A stretch of 64,000 nucleotides of DNA from Squalus acanthias (lineage: Eukaryota), in the NCBI GenBank assembly GCA_030390025.1, contig CM059432.1, forward strand, positions 125,054,001-125,118,000. The letters are read 5' to 3'. A program made the translations under genes and the position numbers. The first letter of the stretch is position 1; each line of letters begins with the position of its first letter. Positions 10,864-60,850 of this stretch are shown here, piece by piece. The notes below the pieces were generated by a model. That model worked only from the letters and a program-made list of their open reading frames with translations, was not told the DNA's origin and searched no databases.

Positions 10864-10963
10864 CTGATGAAAGATCATTGACCTGAAACGTTAGCTCTGT
10901 TTCCCTCTCCACAGACGCTGCCTGCACTACTGAATATTTCCGGCATTTTTCTGTTGTTTTCAG
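10864..10963 (+). mobile_element. Older Penelope-like terminal fragment with decayed minimal hammerhead motif (family A)
   Basis: CTGATGA-aagatcattgacct-GAAAC-GTT, followed by the family-A body (ctctccacagacgctgcctg...ttttctgttgtttt). Confidence 0.7.
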
Positions 10964-11524
10964 CTCAAGTGAGAGCATCAGCTAGCAGCCAAACGTCATA
11001 AAGCAGCATTTGACAATCCGGCAAAGTGAGCTTTTGCAGATCGTGTTGGTTTAAAGAGAGGGGAGGGAGTGGGGCTTAAACAAAAAATAACCATAAGTAG
11101 ACCTTTATGCAATCGAAATATTCCCCAGTGAATCAAATTTAGGCTTTTCGTATGCAGCGTTCCTTTTTTAAGTCGCAACATTGCCGTCCATTTTTCTTTG
11201 AGTTCTGAAACATACAAATTTATGATAACAAAAGTACTCAAGGGCGTTAGATATATAGGGCCACAAAGATTGTGAAATATGTTACAAGGAAGCAACAGGT
11301 AGATGAGTGCCAGGTAGCGCCACCTGATGTTCCGAATGTGGTACCGTATGGGATCATATCCAGTAGACAAAGCACATCAGACGGTAAGAAAAATCAGGGT
11401 TGGAAACTACTGTCTCCAGTACATTCACTCTCCTATCAAGGTATCTAATTATATTTGGAGTAGTCCCAGTGTTTGGCCTCCATTATCTTGTTTGGTAGGC
11501 TATTCCAAACTTAATCTATTTTGA

Positions 11525-11601
11525 AAGAAAGACTTCATTTATATAGCGCCTTTCACGACCACCAGAGTCCCAAAGCGCTTTACAGCCAATGAAGTACTTT
11601 T
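11525..11601 (-). mobile_element. 3' tail of Deu-SINE (SacSINE1-like)
   Basis: Reverse complement matches the tail of the full copy at 62300-62383 (aagtacttcattggctgtaaagcgctttg...gcgctatataaatg). Confidence 0.75.
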
Positions 11602-11609
11602 TAGAGATC

Positions 11610-12165
11610 TACTTTTCACTAATTTCCATTTATGTGCTCTGATCTTGCTTTCATGATGCGCTTTGAATAAGACCCTGGATTTATCGTATCTATATCATCT
11701 AATATTTAATATATTTATTTGTAGTCCCTCCTTAACCAACATTTTTCTAGAGCACAAAGCTTAAACTTCTCTAGTCTGTCCTCATAGCTCAACCTTTCAA
11801 ACTTGGGGTGTTGTCATTCTTATCAGTAGCAGTTTTCATGTACAATGCAACTGCCCAATTGCAGAACCCATCTAAATCCTTTTGCAAATCTTATGGTGCA
11901 TCCATCTATTATTTTACCAATTATTGATATTAGGCTAATAGGCAGTTATTCCCTGGGTCAGTTCTGTCACCCTTTTTAAATAGGGGTACTACTATTTCCT
12001 CCTTGCAGCCCTAAAGAATCGCAGGAGTGCTTGGTGATTCTTCAGTGACGATAGCCAATGCCCCACAAATTTCTTCTCTAGGCTCTTCCAGCAGCTCAGA
12101 ATGTATATACCATCTGGCCCAAGACTAAATCCCTCCCTAATTTATTAAGTGCATCTGAAATACTC
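11610..12165 (-). mobile_element. Highly decayed CR1 fragments
   Basis: Degenerate resemblance to CR1 RT segments (GPDG- and FKKG-like remnants). Confidence 0.45.
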
Positions 12166-12170
12166 ACAAG

Positions 12171-12630
12171 AGGGTATGGTAGCATAGTGATTATGTTACT
12201 GGACTAGTAATCCTGAAACCTGGACTAATGGTCTGGAGATGAGAGTTCAAATCCCATGGCAGCTGGGGGAATTTAAATTCAGTTAATTAAATAAATCGGG
12301 AATTAAAAAGCTAGTATCAGTAATGGTGACGATGAAACTACCAACTTGTCATAAAAACCCAATTGGTTCACTAATGTCCTGCCATCCTTACTTGGTCTGG
12401 CCTACATGTTACTCCAGACTCCAGACCCACAGCAGTGTGGTCTTAACTACCCTCTGAAATGGCCTCATTTGTACCAAAGTGCTACGACCAAGCACTGTGG
12501 GAGTACCTTCACCACAAGGACCGCAGTGGTTCAAGAAGGTGGCTCACCACCACTACCTTCTCGAGGGCAATAAATGCTGACCTTGCCAGCAACGCCCACA
12601 TCCTGTGAATGAATAAGTAAAAAAAAAAGA
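12171..12630 (+). mobile_element. tRNA-derived SINE with LINE-derived tail
   Basis: A-box-like tggtagcatagtg and B-box-like gagttcaaatccc. Tail reads ggttcaagaagg...gccagcaacgcccacatcctgtgaatgaat plus an A-rich end. Confidence 0.7.
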
Positions 12631-12826
12631 GATAATTACAGATGAGGAAGGCCATTTGGCCATCCTGATTTTACGTAGGATATTTTACGTAGGATATACG
12701 GCACAGAAACAGGCCTTTCGGCCCAACCAGTCCATACCGGCGTTTATATTCCACTCGAGCCTCCTCCCGTCTTTCCTCATCTAAATCTATCAGTATAACC
12801 CTCTATTCCCTTCTCCCTCATATGCT

Positions 12827-12920
12827 GACGAAAGGTCATCGACCTGAAACGTTAACTCTCTTTCTCTCTCCACGGATGCTGCCTGGCCTGCTGAGTTTTT
12901 CCAGCGTTTTCTGTTGTTAT
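12827..12920 (+). mobile_element. Young Penelope-like mini-insertion with hammerhead core (family A), 13-bp TSD
   Basis: TSD TCCCTCATATGCT at 12814-12826 and 12921-12933. Core (CT)GACGA-AAGGTC-ATC-GACCT-GAAAC-GTTAAC. Confidence 0.85.
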
Positions 12921-13888
12921 TCCCTCATATGCTTGTCCAGCTTAAATGTATCTATACTATTTGCTTCAACCACTCCCTGTGGTAGCGAGTTCCACATTCT
13001 CACCACCCTCTGGGTAAAGAAGCTCCTTCTGAATTCCCTGTTGGATTTCTTGGTGACTATCTTATATTGATGGCCTCTAGTTATGCTCTTCCCCACAAGT
13101 GGAAACATTCTCTCTGTATCCACTCTATCAAAACCTCTCATAATTTTAAAGACCTCTATTAGATAACCCTTCAGCCTTTTTTCGAGAGAAAAGAGACCCA
13201 GCCTGTTCATCCTTTCCTGATATGTATACCCTTGCATTTCTGGTATCATCCTTGTAAATCTTCTCTGCACCCTCTCCAGTGCCTCTACATCCTTTATAAT
13301 ATGGTGACCAGAACTGCACGCAGTACTCCAAGTGTGGTCTAACCAAGGTTGGATACAGGTTTAGCATAACTTCCCTACTTTTCAATTCTATCCCTCTCGA
13401 AATAAACCCTCGTGCTTGGTATGCTTTTTTTATGGCTTTGCTAACCTGTATCGCAACTTTTAGTGATTTGTGTATTTGTACTCCGAGATCCCTTTGTTCC
13501 TCTACCCCACCTACACTTGCACCCTCCAAGTGATAAGTGACCTCCCTATTCTTCCTACCAAAATGTAATACTTGACATTTACCTGTGTTGATCTTCAATT
13601 GCCAATCATTTGCCATTCTGCAAGTTTATTAATGTCCTCCTGTAATTTGTTGCAGTCGTCCTCAGTATTGACTATCCGCCACCCCCCCCCAAATTTGGTA
13701 TCATCTGCAAATTTAGAAATTGTGTTTTTGATTCCAAAGTCTAAATCGTTAATAAAAATTGTGAACAGCAGTGGTCCCAGCACTGATCCTTGTGGAACAC
13801 CACTACCCACCTTCTGCTACTATGAATAGTTACCCTTTACTCCTTCTCTGCTTTCTGTCTTGAAGCCAGCTAGCAATCCATTCTGCTA

Positions 13889-14108
13889 TAATAACAACAG
13901 AAAACGCTGGAAAAACTCAGCAGGCCAGGCAGCATCCGTGGAGAGAGAAAGAGAGTTAACGTTTCAGGTCGATGACCTTTCATCAGGTCATCGACCTGAA
14001 ACGTTAACTCTCTTTCTCTCTCCACGGATGCTGCCTGGCCTGCTGAGTTTTTCCAGCGTTTTCTGTTGTTATTTCGGATTTCCAGCATCCGCAGTATTTT
14101 GCTATCGT
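13889..14108. mobile_element. Family-A hammerhead element with inverted 5' arm (89-bp perfect palindrome), 14-bp TSD
   Basis: TSD AATCCATTCTGCTA at 13875-13888 and 14109-14122. Arms are 13890-13978 and 13985-14073 with a 6-nt spacer. Confidence 0.88.
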
Positions 14109-14151
14109 AATCCATTCTGCTACTTGTCCCCTGACTCCGCATTCTCTGACC

Positions 14152-17427: not shown

Positions 17428-18372
17428 ATCATAGAATCATAGAATGGTTACAGCACGGAAAAAGGCCATTCGAGCCCGTGCCGGCTCTCTGCAAGAGCAC
17501 CTCAGCTAGTCCCACTCCCCCGCCCTTACCCCGTAGCTCTGCAATTATTTTTCTTTCAGGTACTTATCCAACTCCCTTTTGAAAGCCATGATTGAGCTGC
17601 TGCCACCACCCTTTCAGGCAGTGCACTCCGGATCCTAACCGCTTGCTGCGTAAAAGAAGTTTTTTCTTAGGTCGCCTTTGGTTCTTTTGCCAATCACTTT
17701 AAATCTGTGTCCTCTGGTTCTCGACCCCTCTGCCAATGGGAACCGTTTCTCTCTATCTACTCTGTCTAGACCCCTCATGCTTTTGAACACCTCTATCAAA
17801 TCTCCTCTCAATCTTCTCTGCTCTAAGGAGAAGAACCCCAGTGGGCAACACGGTGGCATAGTGGTTAGCACTGGTGCCTCACAGCGCCAGGGACCCAGGT
17901 TCGAATCTGGCCTCGGGTGACTGTCTGTGTGGAGTTTGCACATTCTCCCCGTGTCTGCGTGGGTTTCCTCCCACAGTCCAAAAATGTGCAGGTTAGGTTG
18001 ATTTGGCTATGATAAATTGACCCTTAGTGTTAGGGGGGGGATTAAATATGTGGGGTTACGGGGATAGGATAGGAAGGGATATGTTAGGGGGAATTAAATA
18101 CGTGGGTTTACGGGGATAGGGTGGGATATGTGTCGGTGCAGGCTCGATGGCGATTCTGTGTGAGAAAGCAGGGACAGGGTACTGGATTTGGATGATCAGC
18201 CATGATCGTATTGAATGGTGGAGCAGGCTCGACGGGCCGAATGGCCTACTCCTGCTCCTAGTTTCTATGTTTCTCCAGTCTATCCACGTAACTGAAGTCC
18301 CTCATCCCTGGAACCATTCTTGTAAGTCTTTTTTGCACCCTCTCTAAGGCCTTCACATCCTTCCTAAAGTGC
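17428..18372 (-). mobile_element. CR1 3' fragment (contains a V-SINE)
   Basis: Has an (atcatagaatcatagaa) tail and the peptide SLEQRRLRGDLIEVFK...TRGHRFK. Confidence 0.85.
17843..18274 (+). mobile_element. V-SINE (HE1-like) with CR1-derived 3' tail
   Basis: tRNA head (ggtggcatagtggtt; ggttcgaatc), V-domain (tgtggagtttgcacattctccccgtgtctgcgtgggtttcctcc), tail shared with CR1 3' ends, and short TSD CCAGT. Confidence 0.9.
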
Positions 18373-19789: not shown

Positions 19790-20305
19790 CAAAGATTTCA
19801 AAAGGGGAGGTCATGCTTGAACAACCTTATTGAATTCTTTGAAGAAGTAACAAAGAGTAGACTTGGGTAATGTAGTAGATGTAATATATTTAGATTTTCA
19901 AAAGGCCTTCGCTAAGGCATAGTAAACTCATGACCAAGGTCAGAACATGGAGTAAGGGGACATGTAGCAGAAAGGATAGCAAGCTGGCTATGAAACATAA
20001 AACAGAGAGTAGGGGTTAAAAAGATAGTTAGTCATACTGGCAAAAGGTGGTAACTGGTGTTCCACAAGGATCGGTGCTGGGACCACTGTTGTTCATCATT
20101 TACATAAACAATTTGGAGTTGGGAATCAGAAGTACAATTTCAAAATTTGCGGATGACACCAAATTGGGAGGTATAGTTAAACAGAGGAAGACTGCGACAA
20201 AATAGAGGAAGACATTAATAAGCTTGCAGAATGGTTGTGTAATTGGCAAATGAACTTCAATATAGACAAGTGAGAGGTGGTACATTTTGGTAGGAAGAAT
20301 AAGGA
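19790..20305 (+). mobile_element. CR1 RT internal fragment
   Basis: LDFQKAF, GVPQGSVLGP and FADDTK motifs readable with stops. Confidence 0.85.
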
Positions 20306-22725: not shown

Positions 22726-25252
22726 ACTATTTTGATCAAACCAATCAATTATCTGTAACTAAATAAAACTTTAAAGGAAACTTAACAAATCAAATTAAAA
22801 TTTGGTAGTCCGGGGTGACGATGCACTCCAGCCCCCGCGGCGCCCACCGGTCGCGGAAAAACTCAAGCGTGCCGGCGGACACCGCATGCTCCATCTCCAG
22901 GGCCACCCGGGCGCGAACATGGCCGCGGAAGAGAGGCAGGCAATCGGGCCGAACGACCCCCTCGACCGCCTGCTGCCTGGACCAATTAATGGCTTTCTTA
23001 GCCAGGCCCAGGAGCAGTCCCACGAGGAGGTCCTCCGACCTGCCCGCTCCCCTCCGCACCGGGTGACCGTAGATCAGGAGCGTGGGGCTGAAGTGCAACC
23101 AGAAATTGAGGAGCAGCCCCTTCAGGTAATGAAAGAGGGGCTGCAACCTCTCACACTCTATATATACGTGAAAAACGGACTCCTCTAGGCCGCAGAAATG
23201 GCAAGCGGCCTGGGAGTCCGTAAACCTACTTATCAACCTATTGCACGGGACTGCTCCGTGCAACACCCTCCAGGCCAAGTCCCCAATAGAACAAGGGAAG
23301 ACTCCCGCGTAGAGAGCCCTCCATTGGGGACCTTCGCCTCTGCCGGACGGCAAGATGGTACGCCAAGGCGTGTCCGGACGGCAGACGAAGATGGCAAAGT
23401 GGAGAGTGTGCAGGAGCAGCCCGTACAGGAAACGCCTCCGTGCGGGTTGAAAGGGCATGGAGGGCATTTCTCCGAGAAGGCTCAAGTGGTGAGGCGGCGG
23501 CTCCCAAGGGAGGATTCGGGGCTGGGCGCCGATAAGGAATTCCGTCCGAACGGGGGTCAGCTCGGACGGGATCGCCCCACGTGCTTGAGCCTCCTCGATA
23601 CACCTAGTGGAGTCGGGGCCCAATGCCATTTTTAGCGACTCGATGGCTTTGACCGCGAGCCGGACGTTGATCCAACCCATGCGCCTCGCCAACTCCTCCG
23701 GCGCCATCCAGCCCGCTCCTCCGCCATCGAGCAGGTCCCCGACTCTAGTCACCTTACCGGGTACAGCCCTGCCCTCCGCCAGCCGACCGAACCCGCGGTC
23801 GAGGAGGTGCGGATTCCTGAGCAGCGGCTCCCGAAGGACGGCCACCGCTCCTGACGGGGGAGAACTGCGCCTGGAGGTGACTCTGTTCCAAACCCATAGC
23901 AGTTCCTGGTAGAAGACAGGCAGCTCCCGCAAGCTGGCACGCGTGCCGCCCACTCTCACAAACAGGAGCTGCGTGTCGTAGTTGAGGCCGTACAGCTGGC
24001 GGAAAAAATACGTCGCCAGCGCACGCCACCTAGGAGGATTCTCCACGTACAGGTATCTCTGCAGCGTCTGAAGACGGAAAGTCGCCGCCTGGGTGCGAAG
24101 GCACACCAGCGCCTGACCGCCCTCCCTAAGCGGGAGACTCAGAACCGCGGCAGAGACCCAGTGCTTCCTTTTGTCCCAGAAGAAGTCGACGAGCTTCTTC
24201 TGCATCTTGGCGACAAACGCAGGGGGAGGGATCAAAGTGACCAACCGGTACCACAACATGGCGGCCACCAGCTGGTTTATGACCAGTGCTCGACCCCTGT
24301 AGGACAACACTCGGAGCAGTCCCGTACAGCGCCGTAGGCGAGCGGTGACTTTGGCCTCCAGCTCTTGCCAGTTCGCCGGCAAGGCGTCCTCGGCCGGGCT
24401 GAGGTAGACTCCCAGGTAGAGGAGGTGCGTCGTGCTCCAGGCGAAGGGCCTGAACTCCTCCGGCAGGGAGTCCACCTGCCATGGGCCCACCAGGAGTCCA
24501 GAACATTTCTCCCAGTTGATCTTGGCGGAGGATGCGTCCGAGTAAATCTGCTGGCAATCTCGCATCCTCCGCAAGTCAACGGGATAGAAACATAGAAACA
24601 TAGAATCTAGGAGCAGGAGTAGGCCATTCGGCCCGTCGAGCCTGCTCCGCCATTCAATACGATCATGGCTGATCATCCAAATCCAGTACCCTGTCCCTGC
24701 TTTAATCCCCACAGTACACATATCCCACCCTACCCCCGTAACCCCACGTATTTAATTCCCCCTAACATATCCCATCCTATCCCCATAACCCCACATATTT
24801 AATCCCCCCTAACACTAAGGGTCAATTTATCATAGCCAAATCAACCTAACCCACACATTTTTGGACTGTGGGAGGAAACCGGAGCACCCGGAGGAAACCC
24901 ACGCAGACACGGGGAGAATGTGCAAACTCCACACAGACAGTCACCCGAGGTCAGATTCGAACCCGGGTCTCTGGCGCTGGGATCCGTGACCGCGAGGAGC
25001 ACGTCATCGGCGTAAGCCGAGAGGACCACCTCCACGCCCGGCCCTTGCAGAGCCAGTCCCGTCAACCTCTTCCGCAAGAGGCGCAGGAAAGGCTCCACGC
25101 AAACGGCGTATAACTGACCGGACATGGGGCATCCCTGACGCACCCCCCTCCCGAAGCGAAGGGGTGCCGTCAAAGACCCGTTAACTTTAAATCAGACACT
25201 CCGCGGCGGCGTACAGAAGTCGGATCCGGGCGACGAAATGCGTCCCGAACCC
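22726..25252 (-). mobile_element. 5'-truncated Tx1-clade non-LTR retrotransposon (RT C-half + CCHC knuckle), GC-rich and young
   Basis: GVRQGCPMS, YADD, YLGVYL and CHFC-x7-H-x4-C motifs, stop at 22790. 13-bp TSD TAAGCATGGTCTT (22713-22725, 25253-25265). 1-nt frameshift near 25190. Confidence 0.92.
24586..24978 (-). mobile_element. 5'-truncated V-SINE inside the Tx1 RT
   Basis: Reverse complement of the 17843-18274 family. TSD GGGAT (24581-24585, 24979-24983). Removal restores ...LLAVTDP-VDLRRM... Confidence 0.92.
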
Positions 25253-26545: not shown

Positions 26546-26572
26546 TTCAGGTCAATGACCTTTCATCAGAAC
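26546..26572 (-). mobile_element. Tiny family-A hammerhead fragment
   Basis: Minus strand reads GTT-CTGATGA-AAGGTCATTGACCT-GAA. Confidence 0.6.
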
Positions 26573-26602: not shown

Positions 26603-27486
26603 GGGGGAAAAATTCAGTATCGCCCCATTTGGGGCGCAATTATCAGCCGGGCACAAAGATTAGCACCTGGCGCTAATTATCATCTCTGACTGCAAACTTG
26701 ACTTATCGCCCCTGTAGGTGATTGGTGCGCTAAATCAGGCGCTACACATCTGTCTTAAGATGCAAAGGCCGAGGAGCGAGGCGCTAACTCAGAGCGCTGG
26801 CGAAGCTCATGTGATGTCAGTCAGCAATGGAACACAGACACAATGGCGCCAGCCAGTTCTTAAGGGGAGGGCTGATCTTGCTTTCCATCCACATCCTGCT
26901 CATTGCAGCCTTGAATCTCGGCCTGGAGAGACCCGTGCATCAAATCTGCTGGAAAGAACAATGGAGAGTACCAGGGAAAGAGCACAGAGTGCAACCCCCA
27001 CAGTCTCTTCTAAATCGATCCAAGGAAGGGCAAATCAAAATGAACCTGCAAAGTGCTGCTCAGTACCCAAAACTCCTTCACACAGCGTTGAATCTCTCCA
27101 GAAGTCTCTCTCTCTCTCTCTCTCTCTGAATGCGTGGTTCAAAAATGTCACCAACAAAAAAAGGCAGGAAGTGGACGCCTTTAAAGAGCGCTCCCCCAGT
27201 CCCTTCCTGACTGCAAAATGCTCCCCTCAACCTGTCGTTGCTAGCAGTAGGCGGTAAAGCAGGGGGCGCCGCTCAATATCCGCTCCGGGGCGCTGCGCAC
27301 TCGACTGATGTCACGATCTGCTGGCGCAGGAGATCGTGGCGGTAGTGTTTAGCACCGCCGCAAGATGTCTAGTTAATTTTGCGAGCGGCGCAAACATCGC
27401 CGCGCCCGGGCGCTAGTTGCTTTGCGCCCCATTAGCGCCCTCTTAAGGCGCCAATGGGAGGCACAACCAACTGAATTTTTTCCCCC
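26603..27486. mobile_element. Non-autonomous TIR element (Harbinger-like MITE)
   Basis: TIRs GGGGGAAAAATTCAGT / ACTGAATTTTTTCCCCC, 3-bp TSD ATA, and GCGCC-rich subterminal repeats. Confidence 0.8.
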
Positions 27487-28409
27487 ATAGTGTTTAAAAA
27501 AAAATAAAACCCAGGATATGGAGGAACAGGTCACAGGATACAGGTACTTGCATAGCAGCAGCATGGAGAGCTGTCTAGAGGTCTAGCAGGAGCAGACTAT
27601 GAGGAGGGTAATGACATGTGGGAGGTGTGGAAGGGTGTTAGGATTGGAGGTTCTGCGTGTGAGAAGTCATGTGACAGGATGTCAGCATGGCGGATGGGAG
27701 TTCTCAATTGCAGTAGTGCTCAGGTAGGATAGTGGAAGCTGGGGGGGGAGGGGGGGGGGGGGGGGGGGGAGAGAAAGGGGTGTACGGAGGTCAAGGGATC
27801 AGAAAATAAAAGCCTAGCAAGTAGAAGCACTAAGTAGGTGATCCTAGACTGGGAACGGTGTAAGAGGGTAGCAGAGCTACTGCTGAGAAAGGCACAATAA
27901 AAGAGTTCTGCCAGGAGCAGGTCAGCAGATTTGATGCTTGGGGCAAAGGGAATTAGGAAAGGGAGAGAAAGGAAGTCACAGGTGCTTAGAGTTTGTTTGG
28001 GTGGATGGGGCGGTGGAGAGAGGAGGACAAGACAGGGGGAGGAAAGAGAAAAATAGAAAGCCAAGAATACTTCCCCAGATGTTCAAGGCAAAAGTCTTCC
28101 CCAGCAGTGAGCTGGAGAGCCTACAATTCAAAAAGACTGAATTGTGCTAGCTGGAAGAGAACACTACATTTCTTACAAGGGCTGGTAGTAAACAGAGCTG
28201 GGGAGCACTCAAATTAGAAAGTGTAGTGATATAGTTTAGACAGACAGGAATGATGCAAATAGCATGACAGGAAGCATATGCATACACGCCACTCATTTGT
28301 AAATGTGGAAGACAACTACATTTTGTAGAAGATAGAAGTTTTCACAAAAACAAAACTGCACCATTTGAAGGCAGTGAAGAAAATGCATTCACACCATTTA
28401 AACAAAAAG

Positions 28410-29201: not shown

Positions 29202-29450
29202 TTACAATCTCCTTAAATTCCGCTTGCTTTGAGCACTTCCTGGCGGTCCATCTTTACTGCCCAAACGTTTGGCAGACCCGCTGCCACATTCCTTGGAACC
29301 GTGGAAAACACAAAAGCACTGCGTGCAGAAGTCAAACGCACAACCTTCTCGACTGCAGAGGCCTCGTTTCTTCATTGGATTGTACCTGGCAGGCGACTGG
29401 CACCGTGGGCATGGTTTTAGAGCCTCATCGTTAAACAATGTTTTGGCAAC
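29202..29450 (-). CDS. FBXO43: F-box only protein 43 (Emi2/XErp1) last coding exon: zinc-binding region and RL tail
   Basis: cag| acceptor. Encodes [21 protein letters not shown]...[19 protein letters not shown]...SKRNLRRL then TAA. Confidence 0.97.
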
Positions 29451-30061
29451 CTGGTGGTGAGAATATATATTTAAGACACTTAATTTTCTCCTTTTAACCC
29501 TCCTCCAAAGAGAACACCTTTTCTTGGGGCACAATTGCAGAGCAGAAGCTGTCTAGGATCACACCCTGAAGCACAAGCAAGCCCTGTGGCCATTACAGTC
29601 AAGCACAATACAGTCACTTCTAACAGGAGGTTAACAAGTGTAGTAGTTAGTAACAGATGCCATAGCAGATTTTTCTCCATAGCGCAGATACACAGCAATT
29701 GAAAAACTCCAAATACCAGGGATTGACCCTGAAACAGTCTTTCCCCATTTGGAGAAGAATTGCACGGCAGTGCACTGTATATCAAACCTATGTAATAGGC
29801 CTACACAGTGATTAGTAGTTTACAGGAAATAAACTGCTTGCATCACCAGCTATACAACTGGCACTTGGGTTTATTTTCGACAAACTACTGGCTCCTGACA
29901 TCACAGGTGCTCCAAAGCAGTCCAGAGTCTCTGGAAGTACTCAAGTCTAAACTGAAATACACATGGTGTTACATTTCTACTTGCTTAGCAACTGACTTTT
30001 GTAGTGTTGTCTAGATGTTGACAGTTTACAGAAAGCTCCAAGAGGTTTCCCTTCTACTTAC

Positions 30062-30247
30062 TTTTAAAAACTCCTCTCGTTTACTAGTTGACCTAGAAAC
30101 ATTGCTCCATCCACCAAGAGTGACTTCTTGCAGAGGGGAAGGAGTTGGGGTAAAGGCAACCCTCGCTTGTGCCTGAACAGATTTCAAAGCAGAACGACTT
30201 GGGAGATTACGTCTGGTTTCAGCATCTGCAGCCCAAGGAAAGCTATC
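30062..30247 (-). CDS. FBXO43: FBXO43 coding exon 4 (186 nt; D-box RSAL)
   Basis: Reads caacag|GAT...AAA|gtaagt. Encodes DSFPWAADAETRRNLPSRSALKSVQAQARV...SKREEFLK. Phase 0/0. Confidence 0.93.
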
Positions 30248-30919: not shown

Positions 30920-33165
30920 CATAGAATGATTCAGCACAGGAGGCCATTCGGCCCATCGTGTGTGCTGGCTCTTTGGTAGAGCTAATCAGACTCCCCTGCT
31001 CTTTCCTCATAGCGCTGTAATTTCCCCCCCCCCCCCCCTACTTCAAATATTTATCAAATTCGGTTTTGAATGTTACAACTGAATCTGCTTCCACCACCTC
31101 AGACAGAGCATTCCAGATCATAACTTTAAAAAAGTTTCATCAGGTCACCTCTGGTTCATTCGCCAATCAACTTATATCGGTGTCCTCTGGTTACTGACCC
31201 TTCTGCCACTGGAAACAGTTTCTCCTTATTTAATCTATCAAAACTCTTCAGGATTTTGAACACCTCTATCAAATCTCCTCTTACTCTTCTCCGCTCCAAG
31301 AACAAGCCCAACTTCTCCACATAACTAAACTCACCTCATCCCTGGAACCAAACTCACTCATCCCTGGAACCATTCTAGTAAATCTCTTCTGCACCCTCGC
31401 CAAGACCTTGACATCCTTCCTGAAGTGTGGTGCACAGAATTAGACAATACTTTAGCGGAGGCCTAACCAGTGTTTTATAAAGCTTTAGCAATAACGCTCT
31501 TGCTTTTCTACTCTATTTATATAACCAAGCATCCCAAATGCCTCAACAGCCTTCTCAACTTGTCCTGTTACCTTCAAAAGTTCTGTATACATACACCCAA
31601 GTCTTTGTTCTTGCATCCCCTTTAAAAATTGTACAATTTAGTTTATTCTTCATTCTTTCTACCAAAATGTATCACTTCACACTTGTCTATTACATTCCAT
31701 CTGCAATGTGTCTTCCCATTTCACCAGTCTGTAAGTCCTCCTGAAGTCTGTTACTATCCTCATTGTTTACTACATTTCAGAGTTTATCATCATCTACAAA
31801 CTTCAAAATTATGCCTTGTATACCCAGATTCAGGTCAATCTGTATATCTATACAAGAGCAGTGGTTCCAATACCAACCCTTGGGGGGGGGGGGGGGGGGG
31901 GGAGGGAGAGAAATACCACTGTATACTACCCTCCAGTCTGAAAAACAACTTTGCAGCACTACTCTGTCCCTTAGTCAATTTTGTATCCATGCTGCTACTG
32001 TCCCTTTTACCCCATAGACTTCAATTTTGCTAACAAGTCTATTCTGTGGTACTTTGTGAAACACCTTTTGAAAGTCCATATACACATCAACTGCACTACT
32101 CTCATCAACCCTCAGTTACTTCAGAGAACTATCAAGTTAGTCAAGCACGATTTGCCTTTAACAAATCTGTGCTGACTCAGTTATTAGCCCATACTTTACA
32201 AATGCCAATTAATTTTGTCCCGATTATCTAAAAGTTTCCCCACTAGACATTGGGCTTGTAGTTGCTGGGTTTAACTTTTTAAATAGAGGTGCAACATTTT
32301 CAATCCTCAAGTTCTCTGGCACCACCCTCGTATCCAAGGAGGATTTGAAGATTGTGGCCACAGCCTATGCAATTTCCATCCTTACTTCCTTCAGTAACTT
32401 GGGATGAGTCCGATCCGGACTTGGGACTTTTCTACTTTGAGGACTGCCAATCTTTTAAGTACCTCCTCTTATTTTTAATCCTATCCAATATCACTACTGT
32501 ATATATACTATGTATTAGATTCCCTCACTGTACCTCTACCTGACGAAGGGGCAGCAGCTCCGAAAGCTCGTAATTTTAAATAAAACTGTTGGACTATAAC
32601 CTGGTGTTGTGCGACTTCTCATTTTTGTCCACCCCAGTCCAACACCGGCATCTCCACATCATGACTACTGTCTCATCCTTTACTGCTACATTGCATCTGT
32701 CTTCACTAAAGGAGGATGCTGCCAAAGTACTCATTTTAGTACTTCAACTATGCCCTCCACCTCCACAAGATCTCCCAATTAGCCCTGCCCTTTTACAATT
32801 TCTGTTCATAAAAGACTTCTTGGTTCCCTTTTATGCAAGCTGCCAACCTATTCTCATACTCTTTGCCCTCTTATTCCCTTCAAGATCTTCTCTGTACTTT
32901 CTATAATCAGCTTGGTTCTCTACTGTATTATAAACCGTACAATTATCAAAGCCTCCTTTTTACCTCTATTTTTAGTCATCCAGGTCCTCCTTTTTTCTGT
33001 CTCATTTTAACCTCCAATTAATCATCCAGGGAGCTCTAGCTTTGGATGTCCTTCCTTTCCCCCTAACCCAAGGAAGTTCTAGCTTTGGATGTCCTTCCTC
33101 TTCCTCCTTCCTCATGAGAATGTGTCCACTCTGTACCCAAACCACCTCTTTGAAGGCCTCCCAAG
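30920..33165 (-). mobile_element. Degenerate CR1 LINE in FBXO43 intron 3
   Basis: Has a CR1 3' end (catagaa...ggccattcggccc) and decayed RT motifs (KFVDD, DFQK.F). Confidence 0.8.
32501..32663 (+). mobile_element. Penelope-like mini-insertion with apparently intact minimal hammerhead ribozyme (family B; core 32537-32572)
   Basis: TAC-CTGACGA-AGGGGC-AGCA-GCTCC-GAAA-GC-TC-GTA. 8-bp TSD ACTACTGT (32493-32500, 32664-32671). Confidence 0.8.
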
Positions 33166-37161: not shown

Positions 37162-37509
37162 CTGACACGAATACAAGCATTTCATTTGCAAAACAAAAAA
37201 AGGGAAAACCTAAATACACGTCAGGTTTAGCTCACACTGCACATCCCACAGCATAGTCAGATGACATTTAAAGCCAGGAGCCAAAGTCCAGCACTTAGAC
37301 AAGAGGAAGTCAAGATAGCAGTCATACATTTCCATACACATTCCATCAGTCTGGATGCACAAATTCTGGACACCATATCAAAGTACTTTTTAAATATGAT
37401 GAGGGTTTCTGCCTCTACCACCTTTTCAGGCAGTGAGTTCCAGACCCCCACCACCCTCTGGGTGAAAAAAGTTCTCAACTCCTGGTATACAAGAGCCATG
37501 TACATCCGT

Positions 37510-42370: not shown

Positions 42371-42626
42371 AAACAATGTGTCGAATTAAAACCTTTAAAA
42401 TGGAAGATGTACTAAAGATAGTGTAGATGGTGAGGTTACTGAAAATGAAAGGTACAAGAGACCCATTATTCCAAGGTTACGATAATTTGCAGAAAGTTTA
42501 GTGTACATCCAACTAAAATGCACTGTGTATTTTTTTGGGCAGGAGTGGGAAGCAGAGGAATCTAGCACATCTGGCTAGTAATATAAAGAATTGGAGAAGC
42601 CTTTGTTTGCATATTACCAATCTTAC

Positions 42627-44144
42627 CTGCAGATATCTTCTACAGTTAAGTGGCACAAAATGAGAGAGAGAATATGTGTCAAATTTCTGTTAAACAGTTC
42701 TTTCAGAATATCCACTTTTTCTAAACCCATTTTTCTGCCAATGAGTCTAATTAGTGAGGGCATAGATTCAGCCAATGCCTTTTCCTCAGAAAGACTCAGA
42801 TCCTGCACAGTGGTATCTCCTGGCCTTTTCCTTTTCCTCATGCACATTTCCTGCACCAACTGTAAAGCAGGGGTGCGAGACAAATCCTCAAACTTTAGTA
42901 GAGATTCCTCACAGGTTTTGTCCTCAAAGACCAACTCATCCTCTTTAATGGGAGATCCTAGGTTGTAATCTGATCCCATTAGAAGAGCTCCTCTGTTTTC
43001 ATCTTCTGCCTCAGACTGGGAACCTCGCTCGTTGAGAGTGGATAACCGCTTGGTTCTTTCCAAATTTCTTTGAGACTTTTTACAATTTAGCATCTTGGGG
43101 GTTTTTTTCTGGTTTGGCACCAATTCCTGGAAGGAACATTCATTGTTTGAAAAGGAATCAGATTTTTCCAAACCAACTGAATTATAGCCACTGTCCTCAG
43201 TTGTTGAGGTATCCAGTTTGCCATGTGAAGGGGTCCTGGATGATGACCTACTCTCAGACAAGTTTACATTGAAGTTCACTGCAAAGCTGCTCACTGGTGT
43301 AAGAAACTGGTCGCCTCCAGGTACTTTAGGCTTTCCATGGCTAGATGGTGTTTCAAAGGACTCTGCCGAAGTGCATTCATCATAGTCTTCAGAGCAAGAG
43401 AAACCACTCAAGTCAAGCTTACTGTATATAGTGGATTGATCAAGGGTTACACATTCAGCAGGTATTAGCTGATTCTTATCCTTTAAGTCATCTATTGTGG
43501 AGGTTCGCTGCTGTGCAAACAAATACCTTTTAGTTCTACATGAAGTGCCACTTTCCTCACTGTTTAAAGTGCTGGTTGCCAAAGGTTCAAAGTTCAAGTC
43601 TCCAGGAGAGTCCAGTGAGCTATCTGAACAGAAAGAGTCCTTATAACATATTCTGGTACAAGACCATTCTACCGTACCAGCTTCAGTAGATTGAAGAAGA
43701 GTTCTGCACAATTCTACACTTCCACTTGAGGCTAGGTGTGACTCAAGAAGTCGCCGCCGTAATGTGATGGTCTTGCCAGTTACCCGAGGTGTTTCAAACT
43801 GAATTGGTGAAATGGAGTTGGTCCTTTTCCCATCAAACTTACTTTCAACTGAAAAGGATGATGGTTGACCAATGCGGAACTGTCTTTCTTTGCACACTAC
43901 AGGAGACATTTTAACAGTAAGTGAATCAAGCTCTCCAATAGTGCCACTGGAATAATTAGCTGAATGAGTTGTGCTTTCTGCTTCATTATATCCACTGTCC
44001 TGTCTTAATGACTTATGCCCAAAGGATTTAAAGCTTTCTTCAGGATTGGCCCCTTGTTGCTCAGTGGCAGTTGACAGTTCACAAGAATGCCTCAGTAAAC
44101 TCAACATCTTGACACAAAGGACAACACAACTAAGTCTTCCAGTC
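42627..44144 (-). CDS. FBXO43: FBXO43 large coding exon 2 (1518 nt): regulatory N-terminal region and start of F-box
   Basis: Reads ttctag|G...AG|gtaag. Contains DSGYNE, QQRTSTID, DSGYNS, RLSTLNERGSQS, TPALQLV and LIGRKMGLEKVDIL. Confidence 0.96.
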
Positions 44145-45988
44145 CTAGAACAGAAACACAAATGGCTACATTATATTTAAAATGAAGAATCAAAGATCAT
44201 TTGAATTTCTGAGTCAAGTCAGAAATTCATTTATAATTCTTGAATTTTCCCAAGTTTTAGAACATCACTGGTCTACAGTAAATGTAGAAATTTAGATTGT
44301 CAGCCAGAAATATGGTCATCCTATTCTTTGTATTTGGCAGTGGCATTTTTCTAAAACTTTGCTCCTAGCCATTCCCTCACATCTGACTGTATGGCTTGGA
44401 GAAGCATGTTTATTTTTTTTAAATTGCATTTATATTTTTCAATCAATCAGTTAATTGGCATCTCATATGGTATCTTTATCAAACAGTCTGGAATGGGACC
44501 TTATTCAGTTCAAGATTACCAGACAAGCTACTAAATTTTAGAGGCAGAGGTAACTGCAGAGGACTTCAGACTCTCCCTCTTTCCCCCACACACCCTTTTT
44601 CCTCCTCTACTCCATCAGTAAGTTTGCAAACTAGTTTATAACATTTTACATAAATCCATTATTAAAAAGGAAAAGCATCTAAATTAACAAAAACTCTCCT
44701 CTATGTAAAAGATGAATGAGGGAAGAAAATTTGATTCTTACATAAGTCACATCTATAGTACACCACACATTAAAAAACTTCTAAATCCCCATTGTAGTTT
44801 TGGACTTGAGGCATGTGGCATAGATCAGTTCCATACTTTGGAACCAATGCGGTGATTGAAGAGAGAAAGGAACACTGCTGGAAACAGCCAAAAAGGACAT
44901 GGATGAACTACATGGAGAAAACTGAAAGGAAAAAAAGTATTCCTTTTAATTCTGCACAAGGAGCTGACTCAATATGTTCATTCTCCCACCATACTTTAAT
45001 TGAATGCAAAAGTAAGCATCTTATTAAAAAAGAGTTTAAAAATATTCATCCCTCCTTTTGGTGGCAATATCATAATGAAGGGAGAACCTGCCTCTTAAAC
45101 TACCTCGAGAGCGCTGTAATTTGTACCTTTGAATCCCAAGCCCAAGTTGACCATTTGGGAATCAAGGTCTGAACCTACACCAATGGGTTTTGTGATTTTA
45201 ACAATCAAGGGAAGTCCTACCAGATATCAATGCACATCTTCTGTTGCAATTACTTCATGAGCACATTTTCACAAATACAAAAGTCAGTATACATTTCACC
45301 CCTCCCCTACTGTAACACCGTCCTTTTAGGGAAATTAAAACTCAGTTGTTTGGTCAAGATTATGTATTACACGTGGCAAGATTAGGAAAAGGAGATGGCA
45401 TGCACTTTCTACATACACGCAAAAATAAGGATAGATATCAATATATATAACAAACACACACACACAGGACAAATACTTTCCAGCAGGACCCACCATGTCC
45501 CAAGACTCTTCTGCTCCTCACCTAGGGTAATAAGATGTACTGTACCAATAGTCAGAGATCAGTTAACATCACAACCCTTAGATCCTCGTCTACATGGACA
45601 CTGGCAGGACACTAGTGCATTTACTCACTATTAAACAATCAGAATTGTTGAGGGGGGGGAAGAAAGAGAAGGAAAGAGTGTAATAGTATATCCCAACACA
45701 TCTAAAGATCTAAAAGAGGAAAAAACACATGGTCGTTTAAACTGTTCCCTAAAAAGTTTAAGCGTTCCTTACAGATTTCCTGTGAAATGCAGCAAGTACA
45801 GAATACTCCCCATACCAACACCAGTTCGTTTTCCCCACAGGAGTGCAATACTCCTTTACTCAGGATAGAACGGCACCCAGCCACCTCCTACGAAGACAAG
45901 CAAAAAAGGTGAAATAAAATACCATGGCACACACACAACATGGGAATTGAATTTTAAAGCTACTTTCTAATTCTATTAAAAGGGTCAC

Positions 45989-46600: not shown

Positions 46601-47160
46601 AGAGACACCCTGGGAATTTTGACAGACTATAAAGACTAAATATAGGCCGGCAAAATTCGTATAATCCCCAAAATGCTGTATATTTATTACACAAGATTAC
46701 ATTTCATTTTTGAAGACTACTTTGCGATAGGAATTGTCACCCCAGTTGGTCACCGATGCGTTCGCTCTCCCTTATTACAATGTCAACAAGAAGCCAAGTT
46801 GTTTTGGTCTGTTGGGGCGTTCTTTTTGCAGTGTTAGTCCAGTGGTAGCCAGCGCACCTGAAAAACACTGGTTTTGCAGCATTACTATGTGCTGCTGACT
46901 TAAATTAAAATGCCCAGGCAATTATCATCTTGTGTTTCGAATCACTAGAAGAGCCGGCAAGAGTCAGTGTTTCGCAGAGCTCCATCTCCCCGCACCCCCC
47001 AAACTTGAGTGATGTGAACTAGTGAGAATACAAGATACTAAAAGGCAGAAAAGGCAATTTCCTCCCACAAGCCCAGATCTTTAATCGGGGATGTCAACCC
47101 TACCTATTCACCATATTCCCAAATCCTCTGTTGCCAGAAGCACATCTAGTTGTCTGGAAC

Positions 47161-47234
47161 AACAACAGAAAACGCTGGAAAAACTCAGCAGGCCAGGCAG
47201 CATCCGTGGAGAGAGAAAGAGAGTTAACGTTTCT
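47161..47234 (-). mobile_element. Family-A Penelope-like mini-insertion truncated at GAAAC, 12-bp TSD
   Basis: TSD GTTGTCTGGAAC (47149-47160, 47235-47246). Body matches 13893-13965. Confidence 0.85.
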
Positions 47235-48316
47235 GTTGTCTGGAACCCATTTATCCTATTCGCTTGATGATTTTTTTTGGTAATTTATTCTATATTTTGA
47301 TTACTCTGTGAAATAGTTCAGTCTCCGAGAGCTTGGGGAGGAAAGAGCTGGGTGAAAACCCGACCGAGTTGGCCACCCTGCAGCCAGTGGGAGAGAACTC
47401 AGGAGGATAGCAAGTGGGTGGCCATCCGACTGGGTAGGAAGAGGCAGGCAGTGCAGTTTCCTCCGGGAGTGTGGTGCTCACACCGGTTTTCAGTACTGAA
47501 TACCGGAGAGGGTGAGAACATCCATGGTACCGTGGGGCAAATGACTGCAAGAGTGGGGGGGGGGGGGGGGGGCAGCAAAGTGTTAAAATGCAGTGGTCAT
47601 GGGGGATTAGATAGTCAGGATAGACAGACGTTGCTACAACTGCCACGAGTCCCACCTGCTGTGCTGCCTCCCTGGTGCCAGGGTAGAGGACATCACTAAA
47701 CTAGTGCAGAACATTCTGCGGGGGAGGGAAAAAAAGGAGACAGCCACAAGTGGTGGTTCATGTCGGAACCAATGACATAGTAACAGAAACAGTCGAGGTC
47801 CCACAGAATAGGTTTCAGGAGCTAGGGAGGAAGTTAAAGAGCAGGACCTCAAAGGGTAGTAATCTCTAGATTACCGTGCTAGTGAGTATAGAAACAGCAA
47901 GATAAAGCAGGTCCACGTGTGGCTGTAGAAATGGGGCAGGAGGGAGGGTTTCAGATTCCTGGGGCATTGGGACAAGTGGATGGATTGCACCTCAACAAGG
48001 CTGGGACCAATGTCCTTGCGGGGAGGTTAACTTGTGGTTTTTTTTTTGGGTGGGTGGAGAAAGAGAGAAAAATGTTTAAAATAATTTGGCTGGCACCAGG
48101 ATGAAGCACTTCTCTGCTCCTTTCTAATGCTGAGAGGACTGGGAGAGACAAACAGCATTAGAATAAAGAGTAGTTCAGAAATAGGAGGGATCAGATGGTA
48201 GAAATGCAAAACAGACAAAGGCAGGTTTGGAGTGTAATTCATAAATGCATGGAGTGTTAGAAATAAAGGTTGGTAAGCTGCAGGCACAAGAAGCCACATG
48301 GAATGATGATAGTGGC

Positions 48317-57749: not shown

Positions 57750-58057
57750 AATTGAAAACTCTGCTGCGCATATCCTAAACTCCACCAAGTCCCGTTCACC
57801 CATCACTCGATCTACATTGGCTACCAGTTCACCTGGGCCCTAAACTCTGGAATTCCCTCCCTAAACCGCTCTGCCTCTGTCCCTCTCTCCTCCCTTAAGA
57901 CACTCCTTAAAACCTACCTCTTTGACCAAGCTTTTGGTCATCTGCCCTAATTTCTCCTTATGTGGTTTGGTGTCAAATTTTGTTTGATAACACTCCTATG
58001 AAGCACCTTGGGATATTTTACTATGTTAAAGGCGCTATATAAATGCAAGTTGTTGTT
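57750..58057 (+). mobile_element. L2-type LINE 3' end
   Basis: Reads aaaacctacctctttgaccaagcttttgg...ggcgctatataaatgcaagttgttgtt. The tail is shared with the Deu-SINE. Confidence 0.7.
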
Positions 58058-58779
58058 CCCATATGCCTTCATTCACCTATCCCCCATATCCCTTCATTCA
58101 ATCTTGAATGTTTCTGCCTCAACCAGTAACCTTGGAAATGAATTCCACAGCCTCACAACAGAACAGAAAATCCCAAGAGGGGTTTAATTAACAAATGCAA
58201 AACCCATTTAAATTATGTTACGTTCCACTGTCAGGCTCAGTAAACACTGAAGCTTTACAATTCTGAGTGAGTTTTAAATGGAGCCTCATGGCTAGGGTCA
58301 TAGTAAGTAACAGAACCTATTAAGAATTATTTTGGTGTATCGGAACTACTACTTTAACCAGTTTTTTTCCTTTGCAAAGAACTAAAGTACCAGGCTCAAA
58401 CTTGGTTTTCGCCAAGGTCACGCAATGTTTTCCTTACAACCAAGATGTGCGCGCACAAAAGTAGAACCCACTGCACATAAACTGCACAGTGGTGGAGTTC
58501 ACAGCTACTCCCCCACCTCCTACTTGCAAGAGAAAAAGGTTAATCAAGAATGGCTACCACTTTTTTTTTTAAAAGGTGCTGCTGTCTTCCCCTAGAGTCC
58601 AACCATTTCGCCACCCAATGGGTCGAGGGAGGTATTAATTATTTCCCACTCACTCAGTATTGAAATTAAGATTTTTAAAAGAAACGTGGAAAAAAACCAA
58701 TAAGAAAGTGTGTGGGCCCAGTGCTGCAGGTACAGCTGGGAGGAGGGGGGAGAGGCAGCAGTGGGTGTGTGTGTGACAG

Positions 58780-59320
58780 ACAGGCCAGTGGAAGGGAACC
58801 CGGTGTTGTCAGGGGGGACGAGATGAAGCCTCTCGCCCCTTTAAACCATGAAGCGGAGATACTTACACAGCTGATGCAGGAGTAACGTGCGGCAACTTCC
58901 TGGCCACTCGTTTTAAAAATACATAAAACCCCTGCGGTTAACCCGCTCCTACATTTTCTCTCTCTCTCTCTGTGACCGGCTTGACTTGTCCTCTATTACC
59001 GCCGCTGACAACACACTCCGCGTTCGAATTTCGTATCCAAACCCCTTATTTGTCAGTCAGCGCAGCCAATCAGCAAGCGCCTTACTCTCCTCCCTCCCCG
59101 AAGATTGCCGAGCGAGCCTCACGTCGCTTGTCGGAGGAGGTACGTCGTGTCACGTCGCTCGGCGGCTGCCGCTGGAGGCTCGCAGACTGGCACCGAAATA
59201 ACGAGCAACAGACAGCAGGCGGTGAGCAGCTCCTGGCACTCTCCTCGGGTTACGGCCCGGCTGCTGGTGGTTAGGCCACAGGCGTTGTGTGCTCTGTGTG
59301 TTTTTGGTCGCATGCGATGC
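58780..59320. promoter_or_regulatory. CpG island, probable bidirectional promoter with divergent non-coding first exons
   Basis: CCAAT box GCCAATCAG at about 59065 and repeated TCACGTCG. Minus-strand donor TGT|GTAAGT at 58867/58866 and plus-strand donor GCG|GTGAGC at 59221/59222. Confidence 0.65.
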
Positions 59321-59341
59321 AATGTAATGAGGCTGAGATTA

Positions 59342-59573
59342 GATTGTTGTTTTAAATCTACAAAGTTTGTGTGAGATTGTTTAAGGGTATTTGTACTGTA
59401 AACTTTGTTGATTATTTGAAAATTTCATCATTGCATTTATATTGTTAATCATAAAGCTGTTTTTAAGGCTTTATTGTTTATTGTGATCAATGAATGTAAT
59501 GGTTTACTATGTAACTGATGAGTTGTATAAGTACTAATGTACTTGAATAATAAAAAGATTCAGCTCAAAAAAA
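59342..59573 (+). mobile_element. Poly(A)-tailed retroposed fragment with 16-bp TSD
   Basis: TSD AATGAGGCTGAGATTA (59326-59341, 59574-59589). AATAAA at 59549-59554, then an A-tract. Confidence 0.85.
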
Positions 59574-59639
59574 AATGAGGCTGAGATTAAAGACTTCTTC
59601 AGCTGGTGGTGGAGGGGAGCTTTGTCACCTGCAGTTCAG

Positions 59640-60850
59640 TGAAGTCATAACGGCACATAAGGCCATTCGGCCCATCGAGTCCGTGCCGGCTCTCTGTAGA
59701 GCAATCCAGTCAGTCCCATTCCCCCACTCTATCCCCGTAGCCCTGCAAGTTTATTTCCCTCAAGTGCCTATCCAGTCTCCCCTTGAAAACATTGAGTGTC
59801 TTCGCCTCCACCACTTCTGTCAGCAGCGAGTTCCAAGTCCTCACCAGTTGCTGCGTAAAAAAGTTTTTCTTCACATCCCCCCTGTATCTCTTGCCCAAAA
59901 CCTTAATTCTGTAGTCCTTGTACCATCAACTAGTGGGAACAGCCTTTCACTGTCTAGCCTATCCAAACCCGTCATAATCTTGTACACCGCTATCAAATCA
60001 CCTCTCAACCTCCTTTGCTCTAACAAAAACAAATCCAGCTTCTCCAACCTGTCCTTGTAGCTAAGATCCCCCATCCACTGAACCATTCTGGTAGATCTCC
60101 TCTGTGCCTCTCAAGGGCCTTCACATCCTTCCTAAAGTGTGGTGAGCAGAACTGGACGCAATACTCGCAATAGGTCTTCGACCTGAAACGTTAACTCTGT
60201 TTCGCTCTCCACGGATGCTGCCTGGCCTGCTGAGTTTTTCCAGCGTTTTCTGTTGTTATTTTGGATTTCCAGCATCCGCAGTATTTTGCTATCGCGATAC
60301 TCCAGTTGTGGCCTTGCCAGCGCTTTATAAAGGTTCAGCATAACTTCTGTACTTTTGTACTCAATATCTCTATTTATGAAGCCCAAGATCCCATATGCTT
60401 TGCTAACCACTCTTTCAATATGTCCTGCCACCTTCAGGGACCTATGCACATTAACTCCCAGGTCCCTCTGTCCCTGCACACTCTTTAAAACTGTGCCATT
60501 AAGTGTATATTGCCTCTCCCTGTTCCTTCTGTCAAAATGCACCACCTCACACTTCTCTGTATTAAATTCCATCTGCCACTTGTCTGCCCATTCTGCTAGC
60601 CTTTCTATGTCCTGTTGCAGTCGATTAGTGTCATCTTCACTGTTCGCCACACCCCCAAGTTTGGTGTCATCGGCACATTTAGAAATTCTACTCTGTATTC
60701 TAATATCCAGGTCATTTATATATATCAAAAAAAGCAGTGGCCCCAGCACTGACCCTTGGGGAACACCACTGTCTACCATCCTCCAGTCTGAAAAACAGCC
60801 ATTTACCACAACTCGCTGTTTTCTATCCTTAAGCCAATTCCTTATCCAAG
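59640..60850 (-). mobile_element. CR1 RT 3' portion containing a family-A hammerhead element
   Basis: ORF 60132-60809 has GVPQGSVLGP and CADD. ORFs 59710-60086 encode the C-terminal part. Confidence 0.9.
60172..60294 (+). mobile_element. Family-A Penelope-like mini-insertion (starts in hammerhead stem II)
   Basis: Reads aggtcttcgacctgaaacgttaac...gcagtattttgctatcg, near-identical to 13985-14107. Imperfect TSD gc(a/g)atactc. Confidence 0.85.

What the first reader, a model, noticed from the sequence alone, without database searches (positions are those of the whole stretch)
10864..60294. Young family of ~75-220-bp mobile elements built around a minimal hammerhead ribozyme (family A, six insertions)
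Seen: related copies at 10864, 12827, 13889, 26546, 47161 and 60172. The four youngest are near-identical, three have clean 12-14-bp TSDs and none has a poly(A) tail. The merged consensus GTT-CTGATGA-AAGGTC-ATC-GACCT-GAAAC-GTT-AAC has the hammerhead core (CUGANGA, GAAA), a stem II, a 3-bp stem I (GUU/AAC) and a palindromic ACGU in place of stem III. Established: minimal type-I hammerheads that work as dimers occur in Penelope-like element termini and retrozymes. Inference: this is a recently active, ribozyme-processed non-autonomous retroelement. All 5' ends fall within about 25 nt in the ribozyme, suggesting reverse transcription stops at, or the RNA starts near, this structure. No single copy here keeps both strands of stem I.
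Basis: partly seen in the sequence, partly recalled or inferred. Interest (0 to 1): 0.75.

Follow-up and report, generated by a model that had tools for sequence, protein, structure and literature searches.

The report
Shark Penelope-like retroelement end fragments
These short repeats in a shark genome look like the clipped ends of a known kind of jumping gene (Penelope-like elements) that carries a tiny hammerhead ribozyme, and the one unusual thing is that copying seems to stop inside the uncut ribozyme.

Summary
The six loci are real: seven arms, four young insertions 97-100% identical, TSDs of 13, 14, 12 and 10 bp, no poly(A). The host is a shark. The motif matches the published minimal type-I hammerhead of Penelope-like elements (PLEs). 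All 6 of 6 arms with a body keep 8-29+ nt upstream of the predicted cut, so the template RNA was not cleaved there, which argues against a ribozyme-processed retrozyme. Best reading: strongly 5'-truncated PLE terminal (pLTR + tail) insertions. No RT/GIY-YIG parent could be retrieved. An unlisted second hammerhead element at 32501-32663 has a different sequence but the same architecture. The 5' ends cluster in 27 nt (P at most 0.011 for six arms, 0.03-0.08 for five events), either from stalling at the uncleaved ribozyme or from an RNA start just upstream. New member of a known kind, with one testable lead.

The parts
10860..10962 (+). Old family A arm (about 83% identical): full core, stem II with one broken pair, short 3' end, no TSD; 5' boundary uncertain
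12825..12921 (+). Young arm +1..+97 (short 3' end); 13-bp TSD at 12814-12826 and 12921-12933; 2-nt microhomology at the 5' junction; inside a CR1 3' region
13890..13986 (-). Inverted arm of the double insertion, +1..+97 (short end, no tail)
13985..14107 (+). Forward arm of the double insertion, +9..+131 (with tail); joined head-to-head to the inverted arm through a 2-nt overlap (13985-13986)
14074..14107 (+). 34-nt optional tail; holds a 9-nt perfect complement of a body segment
13875..13888 (.). Left copy of the 14-bp TSD of the double insertion (right copy 14109-14122); empty site confirmed against the CR1 copy near 19965-19977
26546..26572 (-). 27-nt fragment: core and stem II only, ends inside GAAA; no body, no TSD found; origin unresolved
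47161..47233 (-). Young arm +22..+94 (starts at the base right after stem II); 12-bp TSD at 47149-47160 and 47235-47246; one extra base at 47234; 3 kb upstream of the first matched FBXO43 coding exon, same strand
60172..60294 (+). Young arm +9..+131 (with tail), 4 differences; 10-bp TSD with one mismatch at 60157-60166 and 60293-60302; 5-nt filler copied from the target at 60167-60171; inside a CR1
32501..32663 (+). Second, sequence-unrelated element ('B'): complete minimal hammerhead (core starts 32540, AGCU palindrome, 3-bp stem I with both strands, predicted cut after 32569), 9-bp body/tail stem, 8-bp TSD at 32493 and 32664, inside a CR1 remnant in an FBXO43 intron

Best explanation
Family A consists of strongly 5'-truncated terminal fragments (3' part of the pseudo-LTR plus the optional tail) of a Penelope-like retroelement of a shark. 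Mechanism: a PLE RT/GIY-YIG protein binds the hammerhead-tail region of its RNA, nicks DNA with a 10-14 nt stagger, and primes cDNA internally at one of two sites, 65-68 or 102 nt downstream of the scissile bond. It copies through the uncleaved ribozyme and stops within it, and the 5' end is joined with 0-2 nt microhomology or short filler. When both nicked strands prime, two cDNAs meet head-to-head, as at 13889. Shown here: the ends, TSDs, junctions, inversion and read-through of the cut site. Taken from the anole PLE: internal priming at two sites, extension of both strands, uncleaved template. Inferred: the identity of the enzyme and the existence of a full-length parent. For the 5' clustering I weight RNA start just upstream of the ribozyme (5' pLTR-ORF junction of the mRNA, or a short master) about 0.4, stalling at the folded or protein-bound ribozyme about 0.35, and ordinary truncation in a small sample about 0.25.
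For: Two 3' ends: 4 arms end at +94 to +97 (approximate for the old copy) and 2 arms at +131; the difference is a 34-nt tail. PLE tails are 30-40 bp, optional, and often at one end only (PMC8557442; 31 bp in PMC3846280), and correspond to the stretch between two RT start sites (PMC11167929). The head-to-head inverted insertion carries the tail on one arm inside one 14-bp TSD; the anole PLE protein cleaves and extends both strands. The hammerhead shows an unpaired base between positions 9 and 10.1 and palindromic 15.2-16.2, two features listed for PLE min-HHRs, which occur mostly as single motifs attributed to truncated PLEs (PMC4209133). [quoted passage not shown] Element B has the same layout with different letters in stem I, stem II and the palindrome, and its own 9-bp body/tail stem (A: 0 of 2000 tail shuffles reach 9 bp; B: 5 of 2000). 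The host is a shark (best FBXO43 hit Pristiophorus japonicus, 86%).
Against: No parent was found: no PLE-type RT or GIY-YIG motif in six frames of the window (motifs recalled, crude), Pfam was run on only 2 of 24 read-through frames plus 3 ORFs, two word-indexed protein searches gave nothing, and none of 5 phmmer hits carries an RT or GIY-YIG domain. Rfam does not recognise the motif. There is no covariation inside family A, and the old copy breaks a stem II pair. Position 10.1-11.1 is A-U here, not the highly conserved G-C described in PMC4209133 (B has G-C). The sense strand at the 3' ends is U/G-rich, whereas the anole start site is AC-rich. Whole-arm folding is not better than shuffles (z -0.77 and -1.70 for the two tailed arms; the antisense strand scores -2.23). 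PLE TSDs in the rotifer paper are 8-10 bp, a little shorter than 10-14 here.
Confidence: 0.8

Rival explanations
1. A dedicated short non-autonomous master (a SINE-like PLE derivative) whose RNA starts a few bases upstream of the hammerhead and is mobilised in trans by a PLE protein. Same enzyme and junctions as the best explanation, but the template is a short element of its own.
For: 0 of 6 body-bearing arms extends clearly beyond about -4; the clustering exceeds constant-hazard truncation; non-autonomous PLE derivatives are known (PMC8557442), and pLTR sequences suffice in cis (PMC3846280).
Against: The 5' ends differ (-4, +1, +1, +9, +9, +22) instead of sharing one base. In the anole PLE the RNA needs sequence downstream of the start sites (first 172 nt of the ORF), which a short master might lack. 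Element B runs 39 nt past the core. No tRNA gene was detected in the window.
Confidence: 0.25
2. A non-LTR retrozyme: tandem units cleaved by dimeric hammerheads into monomer or circular RNA that is then reverse transcribed.
For: A minimal type-I hammerhead with a palindromic stem III; retrozymes were reported in the one chondrichthyan sampled and derive from pLTRs (bioRxiv 10.64898/2026.07.22.740005); a circular template could carry sequence across the cut site.
Against: No tandem unit among 12 TRF rows or in BLAST; 0 of 7 arms starts at the cut site; no arm joins tail sequence to the hammerhead 5' side; animal retrozymes in PMC7229834 are tandem repeats with canonical hammerheads; fixed double 3' ends and the inverted insertion are PLE traits.
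Confidence: 0.07
3. The hammerhead look is coincidental and the repeat is some other short element (for example a LINE-mobilised SINE fragment).
For: No Rfam hit; the bare core pattern is near chance; no covariation within the family.
Against: Core, bulged base, 5-bp stem II, GAAA, palindrome and UH all occur in order. A relaxed descriptor returns only 4 sites in 64 kb, 3 from family A and element B, and B varies compensatorily against A. There is no poly(A) or simple-repeat tail.
Confidence: 0.04

Closest known systems
EN+ Penelope-like elements with minimal hammerheads (Poseidon/Penelope, Neptune, Xena, Cercyon; Cervera and De la Pena 2014, PMC4209133)
   Same: Type-I minimal hammerhead with an unpaired base before stem II and palindromic 15.2-16.2; mostly single, dispersed motifs attributed to truncated PLEs.
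   Different: Stem II is 5 bp closed by A-U rather than G-C at 10.1-11.1; no ORF or full pLTR seen; the clade could not be assigned.
PAc, Poseidon element of Anolis carolinensis (Frangieh et al. 2024, PMC11167929)
   Same: Two 3' ends separated by a tail; hammerhead roughly 65-100 nt upstream of the 3' ends (85-92 nt from cut to the main start site in PAc, computed from the paper's numbers); uncleaved template; both strands used.
   Different: The start region is U/G-rich in the sense strand here and AC-rich in PAc. Clustering of 5' ends in the ribozyme is not described in the text read (its Fig. S2 coverage plot could not be seen).
Metazoan non-LTR retrozymes (PMC7229834; bioRxiv 10.64898/2026.07.22.740005)
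   Same: Short, non-coding, type-I hammerhead, related to PLE termini.
   Different: Retrozymes are head-to-tail arrays processed at the ribozyme; these copies are solo or inverted, are not permuted, and read through the cut site.

Membership tests
EN+ Penelope-like element | ORF with telomerase-like RT and GIY-YIG endonuclease in a full-length parent | not testable with these tools
   No motif in the window; protein searches empty or without RT; no eukaryotic genome collection is offered
EN+ Penelope-like element | Minimal type-I hammerhead near the 3' terminus | tested here: met
   against PMC4209133
EN+ Penelope-like element | Optional 30-40 bp 3' tail | tested here: met
   34-nt tail in 2 of 6 body-bearing arms
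EN+ Penelope-like element | Variable 5' truncation and inverted head-to-head copy with tail at one end | tested here: met
   13889-14108 insertion
EN+ Penelope-like element | Variable-length TSD, no poly(A) tail | tested here: met
   13, 14, 12 bp exact and 10 bp with one mismatch in 4 of 6 loci
EN+ Penelope-like element | Partial-tandem pLTR-ORF-pLTR arrangement | not testable with these tools
   Only short fragments lie in the window
Minimal type-I hammerhead (PLE type) | CUGANGA and GAAA cores, UH cut site, stem II | tested here: met
   Intact cores in 3 of 7 arms; stem II perfect in 5 of 6 arms that hold it
Minimal type-I hammerhead (PLE type) | Stem I of 3-5 bp | tested here: inconclusive
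   5' strand seen only in the 27-nt fragment and, degenerate, in the old copy; neither has a TSD boundary
Minimal type-I hammerhead (PLE type) | Covariation of stems among copies | tested here: not met
   No compensatory change within family A; compensatory differences only against element B
Minimal type-I hammerhead (PLE type) | Self-cleavage as a dimer or with protein | not testable with these tools
   Needs a bench assay; the palindrome can self-pair in silico
Non-LTR retrozyme | Head-to-tail tandem units each with a hammerhead | tested here: not met
   None in the window; the rest of the genome was not available
Non-LTR retrozyme | Unit ends set by the cleavage site, or circular permutation | tested here: not met
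   0 of 7 arms starts at the cut; 6 of 6 body-bearing arms span it
Non-LTR retrozyme | Circular RNA in vivo | not testable with these tools
   Needs RNA data

The most novel reading that the evidence does not exclude
The weakly active minimal hammerhead of PLEs works mainly uncleaved, as a stop or strand-transfer signal for the reverse transcriptase. The observed 5' ends sit on its structural boundaries (+22 just after stem II, +9 at the start of stem II twice, +1 at the start of the core twice, each within 2 nt of microhomology). Such programmed stops would mass-produce SINE-like hammerhead-to-tail cassettes and the inverted pseudo-LTRs, and would give a role to a ribozyme whose function in PLEs is stated to be unclear (PMC8557442).
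Probability: 0.2. Interest if true: 0.6.

Novelty: new member of a known kind. Interest (0 to 1): 0.3.

Why it matters
The element class and its ribozyme are known, so the family itself is routine repeat annotation for a shark. Two things are of use. The 220-bp double insertion is a minimal natural example of what was shown in vitro for one lizard PLE: priming from both DNA strands at the two internal start sites, on uncleaved RNA. The clustering of 5' ends inside the ribozyme, if it holds over thousands of genomic copies, would bear on the open question of what PLE hammerheads do, and it can be tested with one genome-wide end tabulation.

Tried and rejected
Rfam scans found no hammerhead; the mir-9201, mir-14, MIR408 and psbJ matches at 13901-14061 are below gathering score and come from the inverted insertion folding on itself. 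The search for a parent ORF failed: motif scan, Pfam on 2 of 24 read-through frames, word-indexed searches with the open 41-codon frame and with a three-sequence alignment, and phmmer over 1.84 billion proteins. Of the 5 phmmer hits, 2 (P0002, P0004) look like translations of related repeat copies, one starting at the hammerhead and one including the tail; the other 3 look unrelated; none has RT or GIY-YIG. Their organisms stayed unchecked. Two pattern scans of bacterial and archaeal genomes gave 0 matches; viral and metagenome contigs stayed unchecked. The open frame starting at the ATG inside the core was considered as the ORF start (as in the anole PLE) but is not supported: one young copy has ACG and the protein searches found no extension. 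Simple fold-back self-priming at stem II for the inverted insertion was rejected because both arms keep a full stem II separated by 6 nt. Selection on the ribozyme from substitutions at N7 and loop II was not claimed: there are few events and two are CpG-type. Whole-arm folding energy is uninformative. Lunse et al. (dimer cleavage) is not held in the library and was seen only as cited in PMC6765202.
Full report
Observation. The six loci were read directly and mapped by BLASTN within the window. There are seven arms, because the 13889 insertion holds two. With C3 of CUGANGA as +1 and the predicted cut after +29, the arms span +1..+97 (12825-12921), +1..+97 (13890-13986, minus), +9..+131 (13985-14107), +22..+94 (47161-47233, minus), +9..+131 (60172-60294), about -4..+97 (old copy at 10864, about 83% identical) and about -3..+24 (26546-26572, minus, a 27-nt fragment). 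The young arms differ by 0, 1 or 4 bases. TSDs are exact at 13, 14 and 12 bp, and 10 bp with one mismatch for the 60172 copy; none was found for the other 2 of 6 loci. Flanks aligned separately to other CR1 copies overlap by about 14 and 10 nt at the 13889 and 60172 sites, so these are true insertions. No copy has a poly(A) tail.

Host. The 515-codon frame at 42626-44170 (minus) is an FBXO43 exon whose best hits are sharks (Pristiophorus japonicus 86%, Heptranchias perlo 80%). Further exons lie at 37062-37166, 30053-30256 and 29205-29453.

The ribozyme. The order core, one unpaired A, 5-bp stem II with a 3-nt loop, GAAA, ACGU palindrome and GUU cut site is present, with intact cores in 3 of 7 arms. 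The bare core pattern alone is near chance (9 of 100 shuffles reach 4 matches). Core plus stem II gives 4 hits against 0.15 in Markov controls (maximum 2 in 100), though two hits are copies of one family. Rfam gives no hammerhead match. The unpaired base between 9 and 10.1 and the palindromic 15.2-16.2 are features listed for PLE minimal hammerheads, which occur mostly as single motifs attributed to truncated PLEs and cleave weakly even as dimers (PMC4209133, parts 1-2 of 4 read; two supplement files searched without a shark match, file 1 not searchable). Against: 10.1-11.1 is A-U rather than the conserved G-C; there is no covariation within family A, and the old copy breaks one stem II pair; the 5' strand of stem I rests on two unbounded copies.

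First, the 3' ends are bimodal: 4 arms end at +94 to +97 and 2 at +131, a 34-nt optional extension. PLEs carry an optional 30-40 bp tail, often at one end only, and often an inverted 5'-truncated copy (PMC8557442, passages; PMC3846280, passages; PMC8969392, passages). [quoted passage not shown] Second, the 13889-14108 insertion is head-to-head, tail on one arm only, with a 2-nt overlap at the join and a single 14-bp TSD, as two-strand priming predicts. Third, 6 of 6 arms with a body keep 8 to 29 or more bases upstream of the cut site, and 0 of 7 arms starts there, so the template was not cleaved at this ribozyme. Fourth, the tail holds a 9-nt perfect complement of the body (0 of 2000 tail shuffles reach 9), although whole-arm folding is not better than shuffles.

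A second element. The descriptor scan found an unlisted complete minimal hammerhead at 32540, inside a 163-bp segment bounded by an 8-bp repeat (32493 and 32664) in a CR1 remnant; the boundary is approximate because the host CR1 has an indel there. It has no sequence match to family A in the window, yet stem I, stem II and the palindrome (AGCU) all hold with other letters, and it has its own 9-bp body/tail stem (5 of 2000 shuffles; the tail boundary was set by analogy). Its 3' end lies 94 nt after the cut and its 5' end 39 nt before the core. It supports the shared architecture and shows that copying can pass the ribozyme.

The 5' clustering. The six body-bearing arms start within 27 nt. Under constant-hazard truncation with a 25-nt detection floor, the chance of so narrow a range is at most 0.011 over mean lengths of 30-3000 nt, and 0.03-0.08 when the double insertion is counted once (the 27-nt fragment was left out). 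No shorter body-only or tail-only copy was found. The copies may share masters, so this is suggestive only. Two causes fit. RT may stall at the folded or protein-bound ribozyme, since the ends fall on its boundaries (+22, +9, +9, +1, +1, each blurred by up to 2 nt of microhomology). Or the RNA may start just upstream: a PLE mRNA carries the same pLTR-ORF junction at its 5' end, the pLTR harbours the start site in Penelope, and priming there would run off after about 100-130 nt. The second route is my inference.

Parent. None could be retrieved, and no eukaryotic genome collection is available; bacterial and archaeal genomes gave 0 matches. Membership in PLEs therefore rests on terminal anatomy, not on the ORF.

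Comparison and novelty. It works like a 5'-truncated EN+ PLE insertion and meets every terminal feature that could be tested. It fails the two retrozyme features that could be tested in the window: tandem units and ends at the cut site (PMC7229834, passages; bioRxiv 10.64898/2026.07.22.740005, parts 1-3 of 5, which reports retrozymes in the one chondrichthyan it sampled; its supplements are closed and may list this family). PMC6765202 and PMC6155905 were seen as passages. Seven searches listed no paper whose title or abstract describes a shark PLE hammerhead or 5' ends clustering in a PLE hammerhead, but Repbase, Dfam and subscription papers were not searchable, so the family may already be catalogued.

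Verdict. A new member of a known kind, interest 0.3. The lead worth following is whether the uncleaved hammerhead stops the reverse transcriptase (probability about 0.2, interest 0.6 if true).

Noticed in passing
window 32501-32663 (+): Second PLE-type short insertion with a complete minimal hammerhead (AGCU palindrome, both stem I strands), 8-bp TSD, in an FBXO43 intron; single copy in the window.
   Followed up: yes
window 550-3168 and 5179-7797: A 2619-bp CR1 segment with a 654-codon RT frame is duplicated with 0 mismatches at a 4629-bp period, between arrays of a 23-bp satellite (1-549, 3168-5178, 7797-9759); either a very recent tandem amplification or an assembly artefact.
   Followed up: partly
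window 29205-44170 (-): FBXO43 (EMI2) coding exons at 42626-44107, 37062-37166, 30053-30256 and 29205-29453; the host is a shark.
   Followed up: yes
window 22790-25200 (-): LINE fragment with a zf-RVT-like domain (below Pfam cut-off) interrupted by a short repeat; 24760-24982 matches 63778-64000 perfectly in inverted orientation, and a related copy lies at 17879-18274.
   Followed up: no
window 13890-14073: The inverted insertion forms a perfect 89-bp hairpin with a 6-nt spacer; it would give double-stranded RNA if transcribed and causes spurious Rfam miRNA matches.
   Followed up: partly
window 26600 and 27470-27489: An 18-of-20 inverted match about 870 bp apart, next to the 27-nt hammerhead fragment, suggests terminal inverted repeats of a non-autonomous DNA transposon.
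   Followed up: no
proteins P0002 and P0004: Two unnamed database proteins appear to contain translations of related repeat copies, so the family occurs in other records and contaminates gene predictions.
   Followed up: partly
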